Shown here: positions 4,616 to 30,876 of the stretch, piece after piece | How positions within the stretch are numbered: the first letter of the stretch is position 1 | Layout of the letters: each line of letters starts with the position of its first letter | NCBI GenBank assembly: GCA_028278265.1 | Contig: JANQET010000041.1 | Span: forward strand, 18,702 to 82,701 | DNA length: 64,000 nucleotides | Source: Myxococcota bacterium | Lineage (GTDB): Bacteria > Myxococcota_A > Polyangia > JAAYKL01 | Reading direction: 5' to 3' | Notes under the pieces: model-generated | Databases searched by the model: none | What the model was told of the DNA's origin: nothing | What the model saw: only the letters and a program-made list of their open reading frames with translations | Position numbers and translations under genes: made by a program

Positions 4616-5221
4616 TCAATCCGCGTCGACCTGTTTTATCAGGGTCAGGATCTCGTCGATCATCACGTAATCCGATGAAGTGTCCCTGGCGATGACCAGG
4701 CCGTTTTCCATATCAATTACCGCGCTGAAGGGTAGGGCACCGATCGTCCCCGGAGGTTCTTTGCCGGTCCAAAAGCCCCCCTTAAAATGAGGGCTTAAAT
4801 AACCGGCGATCTGGGCCACCGGCGCCGGTAAGTGGTTTTTAGTGTAGACCGCAAAGACAGCGCTGTTGTGTTGGTAGAGCTGGGGCTCGATGGCACCGAC
4901 CTGACTGAACCAGTCGGGACAGGTGCTTCATGTGGAGTCCCCGACGGTCAAAACGATCGATTGCAGGCCCAGACAGTGGATGTCGTCAAGAGTGAACTCG
5001 ACCTCTTCCTGTTCGATTGTGCCGTCCAGGTCGGCGTCCATGAACCCCGACTGATGCCAGTTGGCCACGGGTTTGCCCAAGCCGAGGCCCGTTCCCCAAC
5101 TGAAAGGAGCACAGTTGTCACTATCCGGCTCAGGGATCGATCCGCTATCGGGGGTCTCGGGATGTGATGAATCGCTGTCACATGCGAGGGGCATCGCTGC
5201 CCAACTCGCGATGACGCCCAT
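4616..5221 (-). CDS. Candidate selenoprotein A: secreted EF-hand + thioredoxin-fold (TlpA/Prx-like) protein with in-frame TGA (Sec) in a U-x-x-C motif
   Basis: Two same-frame minus-strand ORFs (4928..5272 and 4616..4819) separated only by TGA at 4928-4930. Read-through translation gives ...IVLTVGDST-U-STCPDWFSQVGAIEPQLYQHNSAVFAVYTKNHLPAPVAQIAGYLSPHFKGGFWTGKEPPGTIGALPFSAVIDMENG... N-terminal signal/lipoprotein-like MGVIASWAAMPLAC. Canonical EF-hand loop DADLDGTIEQEE. Hairpin CCGACUG-GUU-CAGUC(A)GG at 4896-4917 starts 11 nt after the UGA and resembles a bacterial SECIS. Confidence 0.6.
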
Positions 5222-5429
5222 GTAGACTACTGTTGTTGAAAAGCGCACGGTGTACCTCTCTCTTGTCTCCACTACAATAATATCCCAAGACGCATGAATG
5301 CTTCCCCAAAAAGGGGAACCGAGGAGCTGAAATCCTCAAGCGGCTAGCTTCAACAAAAATGGAATTTTGATAAATTAGTTCGCAAACAAAACTTGGCGGG
5401 ATCACTGGAAGAGTTGTGTTTCGGATCAT

Positions 5430-17054: not shown

Positions 17055-17595
17055 TCCTTCAGTGTTGGCACCTATTGTGCAGGTGGCTTTCGAGATTAGT
17101 TGAGGCCTCAGTTCTCTTAACTGATAAACACCGAAAATGCGGTTGGTACGAACTGATATCTTCGCTGATCTGATTTGATCAATCGGCTGTGAATCGAGTC
17201 GTCAATCGGCAAGAGGAGTAAGTCCATTGAATCCAGCTCACGGATACGCGAATGAATTCTCATTCTGTCGCCGAAGTTGTGTGCCCCTCCGAGTGGACCA
17301 TCTTCTCATCGACAATAATCGAAGACGACACATGGCCCGAGCTCGTGGTGGAACGATAAGCTGTCTGTCATGGGGCCGCCGCCACCCATAGTCGCCAAAA
17401 AGACAATGGTGTCGATCACTACCAATAGTCGGCAACTGCTTCGTTTTTTCTAATTTAGAAAAGATTCTTTTTTTCGCCCAAAACCCAGCCGAGTCCCGTT
17501 CTTTTACTGAGCCGAAAAGAACAGGCGTCTGTAGAGCGACAGATCCTGTCGATTGTTCTTTTCATATCTTGACCCTTAACCAGGAGGAAATTGAA

Positions 17596-18012
17596 ATGTA
17601 TCGATTCTACGTGGGTATGATTCTCTGTTTGGTTTTGGCCATGGGTGGTTGCGATGAATATGAGGACGAAGTCGTCGACGCTGAATTCGCCCAACTTCAG
17701 GACGAGGTGCAAGATCCCAAGCCGATTGTCATGTGCATCAGCGAATGCAAACGCGAATACCGAGATTGTCTGCAAAGCGGGGTACCCGAAGCCCAATGTG
17801 CCCGGGAAAGAACCCAGTGCATCGGTTTCTGCAGCGAGGAAGAAGTCCTCATTCCAGGCGACGGGGCGGAAGAACATTTCTATTCCAACTCGGGTTGGTG
17901 TCCTCCTCACAAAGCATGTGGCCGTCAGTGCTGCAACTCCCGAGCTTCGCAGCATTGTTGTGAGCCTGGAATTTGTTCGAGGAGAATTGGTAGCCAGGAG
18001 GTTTGTCTGTAG
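17596..18012 (+). CDS. Small cysteine-rich secreted lipoprotein
   Basis: AGGAGG ribosome-binding site at 17583-17588. MYRFYVGMILCLVLAMGGCDEYEDE (lipobox). About 19 Cys in 139 aa with an acidic N-terminal segment, the same style as 48401..48934. The overlapping minus ORF 17455..18120 looks non-coding. Confidence 0.45.
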   Translation: MYRFYVGMILCLVLAMGGCDEYEDEVVDAEFAQLQDEVQDPKPIVMCISECKREYRDCLQSGVPEAQCARERTQCIGFCSEEEVLIPGDGAEEHFYSNSGWCPPHKACGRQCCNSRASQHCCEPGICSRRIGSQEVCL

Positions 18013-18207: not shown

Positions 18208-18873
18208 CTAGTTCCGGCCCTGGTTGGCACGCTTGGCGGCGGCGAGGATTTCTTCGTTGGTGAGGCTGTGAATTTGATCGTCGGCGACGAGGACTTTTCC
18301 ATTCGACATATCGATCACCGCGCGGCCGAGGAGGCCGCTGGAAAGGGGCAGTCGGGATGAATCGGCCCAGAAGCCGCCATCGAAGTATCGGCTCAAATGC
18401 TCGGCCGCGTACGCCATCGGTTCGGAAGCATGGGGATGGGTGTACACGGCGAACACGGCGCTGTTGTGTGTGCTCAGTTGCGCTTCGATCCGACCAACCT
18501 GGCCGAACCGCGTGGCGCAGAGGGCTCCTCACGTTTCATCTCCTTGGACGAAAACGATCGACGACAAGCCGGAGCAGTGAATGTCTTGCAAGCTGAAGCG
18601 AACCTCGTTCCACTCCACCTGACCATCTCGATCGGAGTCAATGAAACCGATTTGCGTCCAATTGGCCACTGGCTGGCCGATCTCGTATTTGGTTCCCCAG
18701 GCGATTTGGGAACACTCGGAATCGGTGTCATTTTCCCAGTTTTCAGGGTCGTCAGAATCGTTGTCCACCTCCGGTGGGTAGCCCCGGACCTCATCATCGC
18801 AGGCGACTTGGAGCCCGACCCAACCGACCGTCCCATACAGGATCAGCAGGGGGAGTGTTACCGGCCGACTCAT
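18208..18873 (-). CDS. Candidate selenoprotein B (paralog of A/C): secreted EF-hand + thioredoxin-fold protein with in-frame TGA
   Basis: ORFs 18529..18873 and 18208..18456 are in the same frame, interrupted only by TGA at 18529-18531: ...IVFVQGDET-U-GALCATRFGQVGRIEAQLSTHNSAVFAVYTHPHAS...YFDGGFWADSS...GRAVIDMSNGKV... Signal MSRPVTLPLLILYGTVGWVGLQVAC. EF-hand loop DSDRDGQVEWNE. Weaker hairpin GGCC-AGGUU-GGUC about 25 nt after the UGA (plus strand 18487-18507). The start ATG overlaps the stop of gene C (ATGA). Confidence 0.5.
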
Positions 18874-19520
18874 CGATCGCTCCCCTGGCCGGCCCGTTCG
18901 CTGCGCTTCACCGCGGCCAAGACCTCGCTGATCATCACATAATCCGTCGACGTGTCCCGGACGACCACTTCACCGGTGCTCAGGTCAATCACCGCGGTGA
19001 AGGGCAGCGCAAAAATGGTTCCCAACCGGGGTCTCTCACCGGTCCAGAACCCTCCCTTGAAATAGGGACTGATATAGCCGGCGATCTCGCGGACCGGCGC
19101 CTCCAGACCGTTCTTGGTGTAGATCACAAAGACAGCGGCATTGTGTTGGTGGAGCTGCGGTTCGATCTCGCCGACCTGACTGAACCAGTCGGGACAGCCG
19201 CTTCACGTCGATCCCCCAATCAGCAACACGATGGACCGCAATCCCAGACAGTGAATGTCGTCGAGGGAGAAAGAGACCTCTTCCCGCTCGATTTCACCGT
19301 TCAGGTCGGCGTCCATGTACCCGGTTTGTCGCCAGTTGGCCACGGGCTTGCCGGGGGTGAGCCCCCTGCCCCAATCAAAGGGAGCGCAATGATCGGTATC
19401 GGTGTCGACCTCCGGGCCGGGGTCTACGGGAATGGGGCGGGCCTCGTCGTCGCAGCCGAGCTGGACGATGCCCCCACCGGTTGTGATGCAAATAGTGAGC
19501 AAGGTGGTTAAGCGATGCAC
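18870..19520 (-). CDS. Candidate selenoprotein C (paralog of A/B): secreted EF-hand + thioredoxin-fold protein with in-frame TGA in U-x-x-C motif
   Basis: ORFs 19203..19634 and 18870..19127 are in the same frame with TGA at 19203-19205: ...IVLLIGGST-U-SGCPDWFSQVGEIEPQLHQHNAAVFVIYTKNGLEAPVREIAGYISPYFKGGFWTGERPRLGTIFALPFTAVIDLSTG... Likely GTG start at 19520 (MHRLTTLLTICITTGGGIVQLGC). EF-hand DADLNGEIEREE. SECIS-like hairpin identical to copy A at plus 19171-19192. Confidence 0.6.
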
Positions 19521-19683
19521 TGTACGGTCCTCTTGCCGTTCTTGTCGGCGGTCGTGATCCCCTATTTTATTAGTTACGCGAGACCCCTCTTTGCTTCCCA
19601 AAAAAAGGATGACAAGGGTAGGGGGTCTTGACAAAAAAATGGAATTTCGATAAATTGGTTCGTATACGAAGGACTGTTATCCC

Positions 19684-20103
19684 ATGAAGCTGCCCCCGAA
19701 CTTTCCGGATTGTACAATTTTCTTACTGGCCAAGGCGTATCAACGATCCCACGCTCGGTTCAAGAATCGGCTCAAACCGTACGCCCTGACCAACCTCCAG
19801 CACCTAGTGTTGGAAGGGCTGTGGTTTAGAGAAGGCCAAACTGCTGCCGAGTTGGGCAAGCTGTTGATTCTCGACAAGGCGACCCTCTCCGGGGTGCTCG
19901 ATCGCCTGGACGACGCGGGTTGGATTGTCAAGGTGCACGATGAGACGGACAAGCGAACGGTTCGCATCTATCCCTCTGGCAAGGCCGACGAGCAGAAGGA
20001 CGCGCTGATCAAGGAGCGGGAGGACGCCAACACCGAGCTGCTCGCCGGATTTTCGTCAGAAGAACAACTGTTGTTGAAGCGGTTCCTCAAGGATCTTTTC
20101 TAG
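19684..20103 (+). CDS. MarR-family transcriptional regulator
   Basis: 139 aa. A winged-helix region (LTNLQHLVLEGLWFREGQTAAELGKLLILDKATLSGVLDRLDDAGWIV...DKRTVRIYPSGKA) is typical of MarR/OhrR. A sigma-70-like promoter (TTGACA-16 nt-ATAAAT) and the 12-bp palindrome TTCGTATACGAA lie immediately upstream. Confidence 0.8.
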   Translation: MKLPPNFPDCTIFLLAKAYQRSHARFKNRLKPYALTNLQHLVLEGLWFREGQTAAELGKLLILDKATLSGVLDRLDDAGWIVKVHDETDKRTVRIYPSGKADEQKDALIKEREDANTELLAGFSSEEQLLLKRFLKDLF

Positions 20104-23797: not shown

Positions 23798-24727
23798 TCA
23801 ATCGATCGCCGGACGGGGGAAGAGGTTGGCCTTCTCCACGATTTTGGGCACCTTTTTCTCCCACTCGATGGCCATGATGTGCACGCCGCTGAGCCCCTTC
23901 ATCTCTTTTAGGGCGTCGATCAATTCGCAGCAGATCTTGACCCCCTCGATCCCGCCCTTGCCCTTGGGGGCGTCGACCATCCGTTTGACAATCGCTTCGG
24001 GCATGATCACCCCGGGGACGTGCTCGGCCATGTACTTGGCCATCCGGCCGGACTTGAGCGGGATCACCCCGGCGAGAATGTGGCACCGTTCGGTGAGGCC
24101 CAGGTCCCGCGCCTTGCTCAGCCATTGTTCGAAAATCTCGAGATCGAAGACGCATTGGGTCTGGATAAAGTCGGCGCCGGCCTCCACTTTTTTCTTCAGC
24201 CGGTAGGGCCGAAACTCGAACGGCTCAGCAAACGGATTGGCGGCCGCGCCGATGAACATCTTCACCGGGCCGTCCAGTTTTTCGTCGGAGTCCAACAATT
24301 TGTTCTCGTCGCGCAACCGCCGCATCGCGCCCACCAATTGGATCGAGTCGATGTCGAAGACATTTTTGCTGTGGGCCTGGTTGCCGAACTGCTGGTGATC
24401 GCCGCTCAGGCACAACACGTTGGGGATGCCCAGGGCGGCCGCGCCGATGATGTCGCTCTGCATCGCGATGCGGTTGCGATCCCGGCAGACCATCTGCATC
24501 ACCGGCTCGAGGCCCTGTTGCTGGGCGACCACCGCGGTGGCGATGCTGGACATGCGCACCACGGCGGTCTGGTTGTCGGTGATGTTTACCGCGTCCACAT
24601 ACCCCCGCAGCAGGGCGGCCTTTTTTTTGACCGCTGCGACGTTGTTGCCCTTGGGCGGTCCCAGCTCACCGGTGACCACGAAGTGGCCCGCTTCGAGCAG
24701 TTTTTCCAAACGACTTGGGGTTTTCAT
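23798..24727 (-). CDS. metF: Methylenetetrahydrofolate reductase (MetF-like, 309 aa)
   Basis: TIM-barrel-sized protein with N-terminal FVVTGELGPPKG (FFPP-like strand). The immediately upstream MetV-like partner supports the MetFV assignment. Confidence 0.6.
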   Translation of the reverse strand: MKTPSRLEKLLEAGHFVVTGELGPPKGNNVAAVKKKAALLRGYVDAVNITDNQTAVVRMSSIATAVVAQQQGLEPVMQMVCRDRNRIAMQSDIIGAAALGIPNVLCLSGDHQQFGNQAHSKNVFDIDSIQLVGAMRRLRDENKLLDSDEKLDGPVKMFIGAAANPFAEPFEFRPYRLKKKVEAGADFIQTQCVFDLEIFEQWLSKARDLGLTERCHILAGVIPLKSGRMAKYMAEHVPGVIMPEAIVKRMVDAPKGKGGIEGVKICCELIDALKEMKGLSGVHIMAIEWEKKVPKIVEKANLFPRPAID

Positions 24728-24733
24728 CGGCGG

Positions 24734-25414
24734 TCAATCCTTTTTGGTGTAGCGATCCCGGTACGCCTCGTGTACTAGCTGCCCCTGTTTCTGATTTTGC
24801 CAAGCTGTGGGTTGACGGATCCGCTCAATGTTCTCCACCCGCTGCTGAGTTTTCAGGCGGTTGAAAATGTCGACCCAGGCGCAGGGGGTCTCGGCGTCCA
24901 GTTCGCAGCGACCCTCCCGCTGGGTGCCGCCGCACGGTCCGTTGAAGATCGATTTGGCGCAGCGGGTCACCGGGCAGATGCAGCCGGTGTAGGCCAGCTG
25001 GCAGTCGCCGCAGGAGCGGCATTTCTCTTCGTACCAGCCCACCTCCCGGTTGACCCCCAGAAACTGGGTGTTCACCCCGGGGTAGACCGGTTTTTCCGGA
25101 AACTGTTCGGCGATCAGTTGGGCCCCGGCGCCACAGCCCACGCAGAGAAATGCCTCGAACTCTGCGGCGAGGATGTCCAGCTCCTGAATAAAATCGGGAT
25201 CGCAACCGCGCTCGACCACGTATCCCTCGAAGGTCTTGTTGAGTCCCTTTTCTTTGAACAGCTGCTCGAGCTCCAGGCACAGCTGGTCCACCTCGGGCTG
25301 ACCGCCGGCCAGGCAGATCGAGGTGCACCCGCCGCAGCCGACGATCAGCGTCTTGCCGTGGGGTTCGAGCCCTTCGGCGATTTCGGGCAGTGGTTTGATT
25401 TGGGCGACAATCAC
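24734..25414 (-). CDS. metV: MetV-like protein (methylene-THF reductase C-terminal-domain family; Cys-rich, probable Zn/Fe-S)
   Basis: 226 aa with the FNGPCGG motif and multiple CxxC pairs (GCGGCTSIC, CVGCGAG, CRSCGDC, CICPVTRC). The gene sits directly upstream of metF. Confidence 0.55.
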   Translation of the reverse strand: MIVAQIKPLPEIAEGLEPHGKTLIVGCGGCTSICLAGGQPEVDQLCLELEQLFKEKGLNKTFEGYVVERGCDPDFIQELDILAAEFEAFLCVGCGAGAQLIAEQFPEKPVYPGVNTQFLGVNREVGWYEEKCRSCGDCQLAYTGCICPVTRCAKSIFNGPCGGTQREGRCELDAETPCAWVDIFNRLKTQQRVENIERIRQPTAWQNQKQGQLVHEAYRDRYTKKD

Positions 25415-25423
25415 AGTCCCACC

Positions 25424-25807
25424 TCACTTATCGTCAAATCGTTGATAGACCCCTTGGGAGCGACAGATGGCCCGGGCCAGGGCGATCATGCTGGAGACAT
25501 CGATCCCGAACGGGCAGTAACAGCGGCGACACAGGGCGCACTTGTCGAACACCAGTGATTTCATCTGTTCGAGCTCGTGCCGGTTCACCTTTCCGCGTTT
25601 TTTGAAGAGACGGCCCAGGGAGTGCACCGCCTTGTAGGCCGGGGTGGCCTTGGGGTCTCGATGGTTGCGGTAGTAGAAGCAGCTCTCGGCGCACAGCCCG
25701 CACTTGGCGCAGATCGACAGAAACAGTTTGAGCTGTTTCTTTTGCGCCAACAGCTGTTTGATCCGGTGTTGGTCGATCGCCGGGGCCGGTCGGTCGCTCA
25801 CCATGTT
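25424..25807 (-). CDS. Small ferredoxin-like protein with two [4Fe-4S] motifs (HdrC/DsrK N-terminal-like)
   Basis: MVSDRPAPAIDQ... followed by CAKCGLCAESC and CALCRRCYCP cluster-binding motifs. The start overlaps the stop of the upstream membrane protein by about 10 nt. Confidence 0.55.
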   Translation of the reverse strand, partial: NMVSDRPAPAIDQHRIKQLLAQKKQLKLFLSICAKCGLCAESCFYYRNHRDPKATPAYKAVHSLGRLFKKRGKVNRHELEQMKSLVFDKCALCRRCYCPFGIDVSSMIALARAICRSQGVYQRFDDK

Positions 25808-26487
25808 CGGCTCCCGGCGGCCAGGCTGTGTTCGCTGTTGATGCCCAGTCGGGTGAAAAAGAAAAAGATCATGTGGCCGAGCTTGGTCACCCCCAGGGCG
25901 ATGAGCATCAATTGCCCGCTGAGCATATGGGCGATGATGATCTGGGGATAGGGGCCGATTTGCCGAAAGGCCAGCCATCCGGTGACAAACGGAGCGACGG
26001 TGATCCCCAACAGGAGAAAATCGGTGACACCGCTGAGCGCCCGCACCGGGGCGCTGAACAAGCGGCGGCCCAAGAAAACCGCTGCGCAGGAGATGACCGC
26101 GACGGTCAGAGCGTCGGTGAGCGGCTCGACAAAACTGGGCAGGCTGAAGCGCCATGCGTCGTAGAGCAACACCTGGTGGCCCCGGGCGAACAGGGGAGTG
26201 ATGAAGAGCAGGGTGTGAAAGAGAACCGTCAGCCCGATCAACAGGGGATGTCGTCCCAGCACCGAGCGGCGCAGGGCGGTACGCCATCCGGTCATCCGCT
26301 GGCCCAACGACGGGGTCGCAGGGGCCCGCTTCTTCGGGGGCGCGGCGCGCAACAGCCGGCGTTGTTTCCGTGCAGACAGCCGAAAGAGCCGGTGCAGCTG
26401 AATCGCCGAGCCGGCCAGGAAAATGGCCAGTGCGAGCCAGGTCATCGGACCGCGGACAAATTCATACAGTTCGGACGGGTTGACCAT
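25798..26487 (-). CDS. Integral membrane cytochrome b-like protein (NarI/HdrE/DsrM family)
   Basis: 229 aa with 5-6 predicted TM helices and conserved His in helices (HPLLIGLTVLFHTLLF, IIAHMLSG, LGHMIFF), typical of quinone-interacting di-heme b subunits. First gene of the metFV-linked operon. Confidence 0.55.
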   Translation of the reverse strand: MVNPSELYEFVRGPMTWLALAIFLAGSAIQLHRLFRLSARKQRRLLRAAPPKKRAPATPSLGQRMTGWRTALRRSVLGRHPLLIGLTVLFHTLLFITPLFARGHQVLLYDAWRFSLPSFVEPLTDALTVAVISCAAVFLGRRLFSAPVRALSGVTDFLLLGITVAPFVTGWLAFRQIGPYPQIIIAHMLSGQLMLIALGVTKLGHMIFFFFTRLGINSEHSLAAGSRTW

Positions 26488-29755: not shown

Positions 29756-30876
29756 CTACTCCGGAGTGATCGGCTCGCAGCCGTAGGCGATGAGAATCTT
29801 GTCCACTTTTCCCGACTCGACTGTTTCACAGGCCTCGCCGCAGAACTCGACGATGGTGTGCTCCGGATCGCGCCAGGTCCAGCCCACGCCCACCGCACAG
29901 TCTGCGTCGTAGAGAACGAGCTCCTCTTCACCGTCGATTTCGAAATAGAAATTCACATTGTCCACATCGACCATCGGATCGTCGGGGTGTTCGACGGTAT
30001 AGGTGCAGCTGACCAGGGTTTCGACGATTGCCGTCAACGCCTCTTCCAGACTTGCTTGGTCGTCGGCGATCAGATACTCGGTAAAATCGGTTCCGCCGTT
30101 CTGAGCGATGGCGTTGAGCTCGTCCGGAGCGACGCCGTCACCGAAACCGATGACAAACGATTTGATGTCGTGATCCTGAAGCAACTCGGTGGTGAGCTGA
30201 CCGAGGGTCTCGGGATTGACCTGGCCCATCGGGTTGTCGGCGATGCCGCATTTGTCCGCACCATCGGAAACGACCAGCAGGTAACTGTTGGCATCGTCAG
30301 CTAAGAAACCGGGCGCATAGGCGGGATTTTTGAACATTGCCATCCCATTGTAAAGGGGGGTCGAGCCCTCCGGCTCTTCGGCGTTGAGATGATCGATAAT
30401 CGTCTGCGCGTTGGTCGCGGCCGCATCCGAGATGACCGGACCGTTGACCCCACAGGTGGAGATGAATCCCGAGCCGTCCGGGAAGTAGTCCAAGCCAAAG
30501 GCCACCTTTGTTTCAAAATCAGCGACCAGCTTGATCAACGCCGCCTTGGCTTGATTCCATTTTTCCACCGGCTGGCCGTCCTCCATCACCATCGAGCTGG
30601 AGGTGTCCTGTAGAATCATCAGCTTGGGCAGCTTCACGCTAATGTTGATCTCTTGGGTATCGCACACATCGGTGTCGATAAAGTCGCTGTCATCGTCGTC
30701 GTCATCATCGTCTCAGCCACCGCCGTCGACGCCGTTGTCATTGTCGTCGTCATCATCATCGTCATCGGGAACCCCTCCATCGGAATCATCGTCAGCAGCA
30801 ACCCCGTCGTCGGAGCAGCAGCAGAAAAGCACCGATAGAAATAACCAGGTGAGAATTGTGATCAAGCGGACCATTC
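29756..30876 (-). pseudogene. VWA (von Willebrand factor A) domain lipoprotein interrupted by an in-frame TGA at 30713-30715
   Basis: Minus strand from ATG 30876: MVRLITILTWLFLSVLFCCCSDDGVAADDDSDGGVPDDDDDDDDNDNGVDGGG-TGA-DDDDDDDSDFIDTDVCDTQEIN...LQDTSSSM (MIDAS DxSxS)... Signal/lipobox, poly-Asp linker and VWA domain are all in one frame. There is no ribosome-binding site for an internal restart and no SECIS-like hairpin after the TGA. Confidence 0.45.

What the first reader, a model, noticed from the sequence alone, without database searches (positions are those of the whole stretch)
18208..19520. Tandem pair of further candidate selenoprotein paralogs (B and C) with the TGA conserved at the same position
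Gene C (18870..19520) has TGA at 19203-19205 in ...LLIGGST-U-SGCPDWFSQVGEIEPQL... It carries the identical SECIS-like hairpin sequence (plus 19171-19192) and an EF-hand DADLNGEIEREE.

Gene B (18208..18873) has TGA at 18529-18531 in ...VFVQGDET-U-GALCATRFGQVGRIEAQL... (Cys at +4) and an EF-hand DSDRDGQVEWNE. It has a weaker candidate hairpin GGCC-AGGUU-GGUC (18487-18507), about 25 nt downstream. The stop of C overlaps the ATG of B (ATGA).

Conservation of the in-frame TGA at the homologous position in three diverged paralogs (about 50-60% identity elsewhere) argues strongly against sequencing error. It implies purifying selection on a recoded codon. Copy B may be diverging.
Basis: partly seen in the sequence, partly recalled or inferred. 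Interest (0 to 1): 0.85.

Follow-up and report, generated by a model that had tools for sequence, protein, structure and literature searches.

The report
Orphan family of periplasmic selenoprotein lipoproteins
The two tandem genes, and a third copy 14 kb away, are very probably real selenocysteine-containing membrane-anchored redox proteins of an unannotated thioredoxin-fold family, which adds a likely new but typical family to a well-known class.

Summary

**Genes.** C (19520..18870, minus strand) and B (18873..18208, minus strand) each carry one in-frame TGA, at 19205..19203 and 18531..18529. Paralog A (5248..4616) has its TGA in the same alignment column.

**Evidence for selenocysteine:**
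- All ten distinct related genes recovered as DNA from other genomes and metagenomes have TGA in that column.
- The four full-length homologs without TGA have Cys there (CxxC in three).
- The roughly 100 codons after the TGA are under purifying selection (dN/dS 0.22-0.33, similar to upstream).
- A hairpin meeting the published bacterial SECIS criteria follows each TGA. In the family its 6-bp upper helix is 96% paired, and 3 of its 6 pairs show compensatory changes. The Cys homolog lacks it.
- TGA is an ordinary stop in 12 of 28 other genes in the window.

**Copy B.** It is divergent: U-x-x-x-C, no cis-proline, and a relocated but strong hairpin.

**Not tested.** The Sec machinery could not be checked, because none lies in the window.

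**Verdict.** A new, mostly Sec-containing family of a known kind.

The parts
18870..19520 (-). Gene C. It encodes a 216-aa lipoprotein precursor with Sec at residue 106 (U-S-G-C). Features: signal peptide, lipobox Cys23 followed by Asp, an acidic linker and a TlpA-like thioredoxin fold.
   Evidence: Translation; family alignment; fold.
19203..19205 (-). In-frame UGA of gene C, the proposed Sec codon.
   Evidence: It shares its column with TGA in all 13 family genes and aligns with Cys in P0006, P0011, P0012 and P0026.
19167..19202 (-). SECIS-type hairpin of gene C. The upper stem-loop is 19193..19175, CC-C-GACUG-GUU-CAGUC-A-GG. The GUU apical loop lies at nt 21-23 from the U of UGA.
   Evidence: Folds (-15.3 kcal/mol). 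Covariance-model hit of 54.0 bits. Covariation.
19278..19313 (-). DxDxDG calcium-type loop of C (DADLNGEIEREE).
   Evidence: It is conserved across the family. In the model it lies between two beta strands.
18208..18873 (-). Gene B. It encodes a 221-aa divergent paralog with Sec at residue 115 (U-G-A-L-C). The cis-Pro is replaced (LLGRAVID). Its start overlaps the stop of C (ATGA).
18529..18531 (-). In-frame UGA of gene B, the proposed Sec codon.
18479..18519 (-). B-specific hairpin. The core is 18510..18486, CGGUUCGGCCA-GGU-UGGUCGGAUCG (11 bp), with its loop at nt 33-35 from the U of UGA. A 5-bp lower stem extends it.
   Evidence: -14.0 kcal/mol for the core, -22.4 kcal/mol extended; z = -2.6. 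The family covariance model does not detect it.
18604..18639 (-). DxDxDG calcium-type loop of B (DSDRDGQVEWNE).
4616..5248 (-). Gene A. This third paralog encodes 210 aa with Sec at residue 107 (U-S-T-C).
4928..4930 (-). In-frame UGA of gene A.
4892..4927 (-). SECIS-type hairpin of gene A. It has the same upper stem-loop as C and a better lower stem.
   Evidence: -17.4 kcal/mol; z = -2.5. Covariance-model hit of 54.6 bits.
19684..20103 (+). MarR-family regulator gene, divergent from C. It is a possible regulator of the C-B operon.
   Evidence: Pfam MarR at 3.2e-12. NCBIfam gives only generic MarR-level scores, for example OhrR at 33 bits against a cut-off of 200.
19635..19656 (-). A 22-nt element, AATTTATCGAAATTCCATTTTT, containing the inverted repeat AATTT-N4-AAATT. 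It lies between C and the MarR gene and overlaps a sigma-70-like promoter for MarR.
5355..5376 (-). The same 22-nt element upstream of A, with one difference. These are the only two copies in the window.
   Evidence: 2 matches against 0 expected.

Best explanation
C and B form a two-gene operon and A is a separate paralog. All three encode selenocysteine-containing lipoproteins of a small family that public databases do not annotate.

Proposed organisation of each protein:
- A signal peptide ends at a lipobox Cys followed by Asp. This is read as acylation and membrane anchoring, with the protein facing the periplasm.
- An acidic flexible linker follows.
- A beta-hairpin carries a DxDxDG calcium-type loop.
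- A TlpA/ResA/CcmG/peroxiredoxin-like thioredoxin fold follows. Its active site at the start of helix alpha-1 is U-x-x-C in A and C, and U-x-x-x-C in B.

Proposed decoding. The UGA is read as selenocysteine by SelB and tRNA-Sec. These are recruited by a hairpin that starts 10-12 nt after the UGA in A and C and has a GUU apical loop at nt 21-23. The hairpin is written into the conserved codons for P-D-W-F-S-Q. B has lost this hairpin and uses a different 11-bp hairpin with a GGU loop at nt 33-35.

Proposed function. The proteins most likely act as extracytoplasmic selenol/thiol-disulfide oxidoreductases, either reductases of oxidised periplasmic substrates or peroxide scavengers. The selenolate would be the attacking nucleophile and the downstream Cys the resolving residue.

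What is shown:
- the TGA, its conservation and its pairing with Cys;
- the coding constraint downstream;
- hairpin covariation;
- the fold class;
- the absence of any known sequence family.

What is inferred:
- actual Sec insertion;
- lipidation and topology;
- calcium binding;
- substrate and direction of electron flow;
- MarR control.
For: 1. TGA lies in the same column in A, B and C and in L003-L009, L011, L013 and L014. That is 13 genes, with locus GC content (measured for L009, L011, L013 and L014) of 49-71%.

2. An exhaustive profile search of 1.84 billion representative proteins gave only 35 hits. Four are full length and have Cys at the TGA column: C-PSC, C-PYC, C-PNC and C-QAT. About 30 are C-terminal fragments that start just after the motif, which is the signature of gene calls broken at the TGA. 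Broken gene calls were seen directly.

3. dN/dS after the TGA is 0.24 (A-C), 0.30-0.33 (B against A or C) and 0.24 (L004-L005). These values are comparable to those before the TGA, and none of the family genes with DNA has a stop or frameshift there.

4. The hairpins meet the bSECIS criteria quoted in PMC13188914:
- loop of 3-9 nt with G first, then G or U;
- upper stem of 4-16 bp;
- spacing of 16-37 nt;
- MFE of -7.5 kcal/mol or lower.
Observed: A and C have loop GUU, spacing 17 nt, and -17.4 and -15.3 kcal/mol. B has loop GGU, an 11-bp stem, spacing 29 nt and -14.0 kcal/mol.

5. Across 12 family sequences the upper helix is 95.8% paired. Three of its 6 pairs show double changes (GC:5/UA:5; GC:8/AU:2/GU:1; AU:8/GC:4). 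The covariation score is 0.214 against 0.130 for shuffles (0 of 500 reach it) and 0.085 or less for slid registers.

6. The Cys homolog L002 has no hairpin at that place (-7.2 kcal/mol, z = +0.5).

7. TGA terminates 12 of 28 Pfam-supported genes in the window, including A and C themselves.

8. The AlphaFold model of Cys homolog P0012 has pLDDT above 90 over the domain.
- Foldseek places CcmG and ResA at the top.
Against: - No Sec machinery (selA, selB, selC, selD) and no tRNA gene lies in the 64-kb window, and the rest of the genome was not available.
- The lower SECIS helix is poorly conserved, at 57% paired.
- Single-sequence z-scores are modest for some members: C -1.15 and L004 -0.57.
- In A and C one upper-stem position is a C.A mismatch.
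- The hairpin overlaps a conserved peptide, so part of its sequence conservation could be protein-level.
- B has no orthologs, so its hairpin has no covariation support.
- Function rests on fold similarity at 9-21% identity and on context only.
- The structure model is of a Cys homolog, not of the window proteins.
Confidence: 0.87

Rival explanations
1. The TGAs are real stops. Each locus would then make a short N-terminal lipoprotein (105-114 aa) and, separately, a C-terminal protein started downstream, as the automatic gene callers assumed.
For: Public gene calls split the loci in exactly this way: 105+85 aa and 114+82 aa in L001, with the same pattern.
Against: - The called downstream starts lie 24-26 codons after the TGA. 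They fall inside sequence that is conserved at the protein level (CPDWFSQVGxIExQ) and under purifying selection.
- The split would cut a single thioredoxin fold between beta-1 and alpha-1 and remove the active-site Cys.
- TGA-free homologs are contiguous, with Cys at the junction.
Confidence: 0.04
2. The genes are pseudogenes, or the TGAs are sequencing or assembly errors.
For: There is one nonsense codon per gene. Copy B has lost the cis-Pro and changed the spacing of its motif.
Against: - The same codon occupies the same column in 13 genes from independent assemblies, and the same sequence occurs in an independent Logan assembly.
- dN/dS is well below 1 downstream, with no further stops or frameshifts.
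- A structured RNA element with compensatory changes follows the codon.
Confidence: 0.02
3. UGA is recoded, but not as selenocysteine. It could be general UGA=Trp or Gly reassignment, or SECIS-independent near-cognate read-through inserting Trp or Cys.
For: Sec machinery was not seen. Cys at that position is evidently functional in the homologs.
Against: - TGA is the commonest ordinary stop in the window, used by 12 of 28 genes, so the code is not reassigned.
- In-frame TGA occurs only at this one catalytic position.
- The hairpin has the geometry and the G-first apical loop of bacterial SECIS elements, and it co-occurs strictly with TGA, not with Cys codons.
Confidence: 0.06

Closest known systems
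[quoted passage not shown]
   Same: - The thioredoxin fold is of the TlpA/ResA/CcmG type.
- Sec is the first residue of the redox motif at the start of alpha-1, with a resolving Cys downstream.
- The location is extracytoplasmic.
- The SECIS lies immediately after the UGA.
   Different: - No sequence-level match at E<=1 to Pfam, which holds the AhpC-TSA, Redoxin and Thioredoxin_8 models, or to NCBIfam. Those listed families are defined by a detectable cd02966 domain.
- The motif is [ST][ST]-U-x-x-C-P, without the Trp that usually precedes the CxxC.
- The family has an extra N-terminal DxDxDG loop and an acidic lipoprotein linker.
- The family is mostly Sec, with few Cys members.
ResA / CcmG (DsbE) / TlpA membrane-anchored periplasmic thiol-disulfide reductases (PDB 2f9s, 3gl3, 2b1k, 1jfu)
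   Same: - They have an N-terminal beta-hairpin before the Trx core, a CxxC at alpha-1 and a cis-Pro loop, and they are membrane tethered.
   Different: - Identity is only 11-21%.
- They use Cys, not Sec.
- They are anchored by a transmembrane helix rather than a lipobox.
- The window contains no cytochrome c maturation genes or CcdA/DsbD partner.
Peroxiredoxins of the BCP/AhpE type and Prx-like selenoproteins (PF00578)
   Different: The PxxxTxxC peroxidatic motif is absent, since Thr directly precedes U. There is no Pfam AhpC-TSA match.
E. coli fdhF-type bacterial SECIS
   Same: - It is a hairpin directly downstream of the UGA, inside the coding sequence.
- It has a small apical loop with G then U, about 20 nt from the UGA.
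- The upper stem-loop is about 17 nt and starts about 11 nt after the UGA. These fdhF details are from my own knowledge. The general criteria are from PMC13188914.
   Different: The sequence is different, the loop is 3 nt (GUU) and no bulged U is evident. No Rfam family matches.
EF-hand and DxDxDG calcium-binding loops
   Same: The 12-residue loop fits D-x-D-x-[DN]-G-x-[IV]-x-x-x-E in all three copies and across the family. The only PDB sequence 'hit' of the family profile is a lanthanide-binding tag derived from EF-hands (E = 0.8, not significant).
   Different: The loop is predicted to lie between two beta strands of the N-terminal hairpin, not in a helix-loop-helix. There is no Pfam EF-hand match.

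Membership tests
Bacterial selenoprotein gene (Sec-UGA plus bSECIS) | An in-frame UGA aligned with Cys in TGA-free homologs (a Sec/Cys pair). | tested here: met
   P0006, P0011, P0012 and P0026 have Cys in the TGA column.
Bacterial selenoprotein gene (Sec-UGA plus bSECIS) | [quoted passage not shown] | tested here: met
   All 10 distinct homologous genes with DNA have TGA there.
Bacterial selenoprotein gene (Sec-UGA plus bSECIS) | Protein-coding constraint continues downstream of the UGA. | tested here: met
   dN/dS after the TGA is 0.22-0.33 for the window paralog and closest pairs (0.54-0.70 in three distant cross-locus pairs), with no stops or frameshifts.
Bacterial selenoprotein gene (Sec-UGA plus bSECIS) | [quoted passage not shown] | tested here: met
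   A and C: loop GUU, spacing 17 nt, -17.4 and -15.3 kcal/mol. B: loop GGU, 11-bp stem, spacing 29 nt, -14.0 kcal/mol. Covariation supports the family hairpin. B's hairpin has no comparative support.
Bacterial selenoprotein gene (Sec-UGA plus bSECIS) | selA, selB, selC (tRNA-Sec) and selD are present in the same genome. | not testable with these tools
   None lies in the 64-kb window. The rest of the genome is not available, and the only other copy is a 10.6-kb Logan contig.
Bacterial selenoprotein gene (Sec-UGA plus bSECIS) | Selenium is physically incorporated at the UGA position. | not testable with these tools
   This needs 75Se labelling or mass spectrometry.
TlpA/ResA/CcmG-like thioredoxin-fold oxidoreductases | A thioredoxin fold with an N-terminal hairpin and a central insert. 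| tested here: met
   [not shown]
TlpA/ResA/CcmG-like thioredoxin-fold oxidoreductases | A C/U-x-x-C at the N-terminus of alpha-1 and a cis-Pro loop before beta-3. | tested here: met
   A has U-STC and LPFSAVID. C has U-SGC and LPFTAVID. Both features are NOT met in B, which has U-GALC and LLGRAVID.
TlpA/ResA/CcmG-like thioredoxin-fold oxidoreductases | Recognition by the family's sequence models (Pfam AhpC-TSA, Redoxin, Thioredoxin_8; CDD cd02966). | tested here: not met
   No Pfam or NCBIfam family was found at E<=1 for B, C or the Cys homologs. The family profile gave no PDB sequence hit. cd02966 itself could not be run.
Peroxiredoxin | The PxxxT/SxxC peroxidatic motif. | tested here: not met
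   The sequence reads G-[GD]-[SE]-T-U-x-x-C, with Thr adjacent to U and no Pro four residues before it.
Canonical EF-hand | A 12-residue loop of consensus DxDxDGxIxxxE flanked by two helices. | tested here: inconclusive
   The loop consensus is met in A, B and C. The flanks are predicted as beta strands in the homolog model. There is no Pfam EF-hand hit.
Bacterial lipoprotein | A signal peptide ending in a lipobox [LVI][ASTVI][GAS]C. | tested here: inconclusive
   An n-region, an h-region and an invariant Cys followed by Asp are present in all members. The -1 position fits (A or G), but the -3 position is non-canonical in A, B and C (PLAC, QLGC, QVAC). No dedicated predictor was available.
Any of the 119 catalogued prokaryotic selenoprotein families (PMC13188914, Table 1) | A match to the family's Pfam, TIGR or NF model. 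| tested here: not met
   No hit was found in Pfam-A or NCBIfam release 20. Families defined only by CDD or PANTHER identifiers could not be tested.

The most novel reading that the evidence does not exclude
This is a selenoprotein family that has not been described. It is a sequence-orphan, TlpA-fold periplasmic lipoprotein with a calcium-type loop, and it differs from typical selenoprotein families in three ways.

- Sec is the dominant state: roughly 30 of 35 clusters, against 4 Cys forms.
- The SECIS hairpin is hard-wired into a conserved peptide (P-[DGS]-W-F-S-Q) that is found only in the Sec forms.
- One genome carries three paralogs. One of them, B, has re-invented both its redox motif (UxxxC, no cis-Pro) and its SECIS.

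Because B's start overlaps C's stop, B's translation could be coupled to successful Sec insertion in C. That would make the operon respond to selenium at the translational level.
Probability: 0.45. Interest if true: 0.6.

Novelty: new member of a known kind. Interest (0 to 1): 0.55.

Why it matters
- It adds an apparently uncatalogued family to the bacterial selenoproteome. Public gene calls split every Sec member into two 'hypothetical' fragments, so the family is invisible to annotation.
- It is a clean natural data set for SECIS evolution. The hairpin co-evolves with the codons it is made of, it is absent from the Cys forms, and paralog B has replaced it with a different hairpin at another distance.
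- A family that is mostly Sec, extracytoplasmic and present in three copies suggests a specific need for selenol chemistry in the periplasm of these uncultured bacteria.
- The biological class, a thioredoxin-fold UxxC selenoprotein, is the commonest kind already known. The result is therefore an extension rather than a surprise.

Tried and rejected
- **Word-indexed homolog search.** Full-length C with U changed to C returned nothing.
- **Exhaustive search input.** The search was therefore run with the post-TGA parts only.
- **Genome scan.** The 7-sequence alignment was too diverse to search with. The 3-paralog alignment found only one genome locus.
- **Rfam and ARAGORN.** Neither found anything in the window.
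- **Pfam, NCBIfam and PDB sequence searches of the family.** None gave a significant hit.
- **Structure searches.** The AFDB Foldseek library was unavailable.
- **Other selenoprotein genes in the window.** A scan for TGA read-through ORFs gave no convincing case besides A, B and C. The ORF pair at 25424..26487 is two overlapping ordinary genes.
- **OhrR idea for the MarR neighbour.** It was not supported: 33 bits against a cut-off of 200.
- **Sigma-54 promoter.** I considered one in the shared upstream region and dropped it, because the GG/GC spacing is not conserved between A and C (from reading).
- **Conserved partner gene.** The lipoprotein gene upstream of the family gene in L003 and L011 has no homolog in the window.
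- **Third covariance-model hit.** The hit at 30636..30578 (20 bits) has a 20-nt loop and an out-of-frame UGA, so I judged it to be chance.
Full report
**1. The observation**

Both genes lie on the minus strand.

- Gene C runs 19520..18870. It has a GTG start 8 nt after AAGAGGA, and translation gives 216 residues with one internal TGA at 19205..19203..LLIGGST-U-SGCPDWFSQVGEIEPQL...
- Gene B runs 18873..18208. It gives 221 residues with one internal TGA at 18531..18529..VFVQGDET-U-GALCATRFGQVGRIEAQL... Its ATG overlaps the TGA stop of C (ATGA).
- A tblastn of B and C against the window finds the third paralog A at 5248..4616, with its TGA at 4930..4928.
- A and C are 62% identical (70% over the mature domain). 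B is 43-46% identical to either.
- The three TGAs fall in one alignment column.
Two details need correcting. Identity for B is below the stated 50-60%. The B hairpin is much stronger than described.

**2. Is the TGA a sense codon?**

(a) Homologs
- A word-indexed search with full-length C found nothing.
- An exhaustive HMMER search of 1.84 billion representative proteins, using a profile of the three post-TGA segments, found only 35 proteins.
- Four of them are full length (217-249 aa). When aligned, they carry Cys exactly at the TGA column: GDTS-C-PSC-P, DTT-C-PYC-P, GTTT-C-PNC-P and GDTS-C-QAT-P.
- Most of the other ~30 are 54-96-aa pieces that start with a start-codon residue shortly after the motif. 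This is the footprint of gene callers stopping at a TGA.
- The same breakage is visible in the Logan copy of this contig, as 105+85 aa and 114+82 aa. It is also visible in other contigs.

(b) DNA of homologs
- Scans of genome and metagenome collections used N-terminal peptide patterns, which do not favour Sec or Cys forms. They returned six loci, L003-L008.
- Look-ups of four fragments gave L009 (with its near-identical copy L010), L011 (with its near-identical copy L012), L013 and L014.
- All ten distinct genes have TGA in the same column and an open frame for about 100 further codons to a normal stop. The exceptions are L007 and L008, which run off the contig end with the frame still open.
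- Locus GC content, measured for L009, L011, L013 and L014, is 49-71%, so these are different organisms.

(c) Selection
- Nei-Gojobori dN/dS for the segment after the TGA is 0.24 for A-C, 0.30 and 0.33 for B against A and C, and 0.24 for L004-L005.
- The segment before the TGA gives 0.19, 0.16, 0.24 and 0.42 for the same pairs.
- The downstream half is therefore translated and constrained.

(d) Genetic code
- TGA terminates 12 of 28 Pfam-supported genes in the window, including A and C.
- UGA is therefore not generally reassigned.

**3. The RNA element**

- In A, C and all ten homologs, the 45 nt after the UGA fold into the same hairpin. A variable lower stem is followed by an upper stem, C-C-N-G-A-C-U-G / C-A-G-U-C-N-G-G, closed by a GUU loop at nt 21-23 counted from the U of UGA (24-26 in L014, which has one extra codon).
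- On the 12-sequence alignment the six-pair upper helix is 95.8% paired. Three of its pairs show double, compensatory changes: GC:5/UA:5; GC:8/AU:2/GU:1; AU:8/GC:4.
- The covariation score is 0.214. Shuffles give 0.130 (0 of 500 reach the observed value) and slid registers give 0.085 or less. The lower helix is only 57% paired.
- The covarying positions link a non-synonymous site (codon GAC, GGC or AGC for D, G or S) with the synonymous third base of the Ser codon (AGU or AGC). That is hard to explain by protein selection alone (read).
- The Cys homolog L002 has no hairpin at that place (-7.2 kcal/mol, z = +0.5). The Sec forms have z from -0.6 to -4.1.
- A covariance model built only from the ten non-window sequences hits the window at exactly 4930..4883 (54.6 bits) and 19205..19158 (54.0 bits). 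The next hit scores 20 bits.
- The published bSECIS model requires four things (PMC13188914):
  - an upper stem of 4-16 bp;
  - 16-37 nt between the UGA and the loop;
  - an MFE of -7.5 kcal/mol or lower.
- A and C meet it with loop GUU, spacing 17 nt, and -17.4 and -15.3 kcal/mol.
- B has lost the family hairpin. It has instead CGGUUCGGCCA-GGU-UGGUCGGAUCG at 18510..18486: 11 bp, GGU loop, spacing 29 nt and -14.0 kcal/mol. A lower stem extends it to -22.4 kcal/mol, with z = -2.6. It also fits the model, but it has no comparative support because no B-type ortholog was found.

**4. What the proteins are**

- No Pfam or NCBIfam family matches B, C or the Cys homologs at E<=1. The family profile finds no PDB chain.
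- Where the sources give a name at all, public records name members 'hypothetical protein'.
- An AlphaFold2 model of Cys homolog P0012, built on the family alignment, has pLDDT above 90 across residues 65-230.
- The U-x-x-C sits where these proteins have CxxC, at the start of alpha-1. The LPF[TS]AVID stretch is the cis-Pro loop.
- All members begin with a signal peptide ending in an invariant Cys, followed by Asp in all but P0006, P0011, P0012 and P0026, and then an acidic, often repetitive D/T/S linker. I read this as a lipoprotein tethered to the membrane and facing the periplasm. That reading is an inference, since no predictor was run and the -3 lipobox position is non-canonical in A, B and C.
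- Before the Trx core there are two conserved Cys (C-x4-W-G and D-I-H-C) and a 12-residue loop that fits the EF-hand consensus: DADLNGEIEREE, DADLDGTIEQEE and DSDRDGQVEWNE. In the model this loop joins two beta strands of the N-terminal hairpin. It is therefore better called a DxDxDG calcium-type loop than an EF-hand.

**5. Copy B**

B keeps the TGA, the overall fold signature and purifying selection. It differs in four ways:
- It has one extra residue in the redox motif (U-G-A-L-C).
- It has Ala instead of Pro after the Cys.
- It has no cis-Pro (LLGRAVID).
- It has lost the WFSQ peptide and SECIS and has a hairpin of its own 12 nt further downstream.

B looks neo-functionalised rather than decaying.

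**6. Context**

- C and B form an operon, divergent from a MarR-family gene at 19684..20103. NCBIfam gives only generic MarR-level similarity, so an OhrR assignment is not justified.
- A 22-nt element containing the inverted repeat AATTT-N4-AAATT occurs only twice in the window: upstream of C (19635..19656) and upstream of A (5355..5376). Zero copies are expected by chance.
- At C the element overlaps a sigma-70-like promoter that points towards the MarR gene.
- Co-regulation of A and C-B by this MarR is plausible but untested.
- The window has many sigma-54 activators, a MetF/MetV pair, an NrfD-multihaem protein and HdrD-like proteins. This suggests a deltaproteobacterial-type anaerobe, which is my own inference.
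- The window holds no selA, selB, selC or selD and no tRNA. The second refutation test, whether the genome has Sec machinery, therefore remains open.

**7. Mechanism proposed**

- SelB and Sec-tRNA(Sec) bind the hairpin as the ribosome reaches the UGA and insert Sec at residue 106 (C), 115 (B) or 107 (A).
- The exported, lipid-anchored protein uses the selenolate as nucleophile, with Cys at +3 (or +4 in B) as the resolving residue. It would reduce disulfides, sulfenates or peroxides in the periplasm.
- It would probably be recycled by a membrane reductant system that is not in the window.
- Shown: the recoding signature, the fold class and the motif.
- Inferred: Sec insertion, topology, Ca binding, substrate and regulation.

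**8. Comparison and novelty**

- Thioredoxin-fold UxxC proteins are the commonest kind of bacterial selenoprotein. The 2026 inventory lists 119 families or subfamilies, including two TlpA-like ones defined by cd02966.
- This family matches none of the Pfam or NCBIfam models cited in that inventory. The CDD-defined entries could not be tested.
- I therefore classify it as a new member, probably a new family, of a known kind.
- Three features are unusual:
  - Sec forms predominate over Cys forms.
  - The SECIS is embedded in a Sec-form-specific conserved peptide.
  - One genome holds three paralogs, one of them with a remodelled motif and a remodelled SECIS.

**9. Verdict**

- Observation: confirmed.
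- Interpretation: supported.
- Confidence that these are genuine selenoprotein genes is about 0.87. The exact biochemical role is much less certain.

Noticed in passing
window 29756..30874 (-), TGA at 30715..30713: The VWA-domain ORF has a GTG start at 30667. In the same frame upstream lies a lipoprotein signal peptide (MVRLITILTWLFLSVLFCCCSDD..). The two are separated by a single in-frame TGA inside a poly-Asp linker (..VDGGG*DDDDDDDD..). This could be an assembly error in a repeat, a pseudogene or read-through. No SECIS-like feature was examined there.
   Followed up: no
window 30578..30636 (-): The family SECIS covariance model gives a weak third hit here (20 bits, rough E of 3.5e-4), inside the VWA gene. 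It has a 20-nt loop in place of the 3-nt loop, and its UGA is out of frame with the ORF. I judged it to be chance.
   Followed up: partly
window 25424..26487 (-): A 229-aa polytopic membrane protein (25798..26487) ends in a TGA that overlaps the start of a small 4Fe-4S protein, next to MetV/MetF (23798..25414). The 287-aa ORF listed at 25424..26287 is probably an over-extension of that small gene.
   Followed up: partly
window 5355..5376 and 19635..19656: An almost identical 22-nt element (AATTTATC[AG]AAATTCCATTTTT) lies upstream of paralogs A and C. A second shared block (CCYTTTTTKGGGAAGCA) lies nearer the genes. The regulatory region was therefore duplicated along with the gene. It may be a MarR operator.
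   Followed up: partly
L003 5076..5783 and L011 1991..2668: In two high-GC MAGs the family gene is preceded by a homologous acidic lipoprotein gene of about 225-235 aa (36-38% identity). Its stop overlaps the selenoprotein start. This partner has no homolog in the window. An SDR gene sits next to the family gene in L011, and one also sits next to window copy A.
   Followed up: partly
window 17569..18012 (+): A small Cys-rich putative lipoprotein (147 aa, MYRFYVGMILCLVLAMGGCDEYEDE..) is convergent with gene B. It has no Pfam or NCBIfam match. A different Cys-containing acidic lipoprotein precedes the family gene in L014 (1356..1880).
   Followed up: no
L003 2516..5044: An 842-aa fusion protein resembling a CoA-disulfide reductase with rhodanese and DsrE-like parts lies upstream of the family gene. 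It has ..FANCGLPY.. The catalogued selenoprotein form of this enzyme class has the motif UGxP, so this would be the Cys version.
   Followed up: no
family profile A3, positions 66-87: The only PDB sequence match of the family profile (E = 0.8, not significant) is the lanthanide-binding tag of a nanobody construct (6y1r). It aligns to the DxDxDG loop.
   Followed up: no
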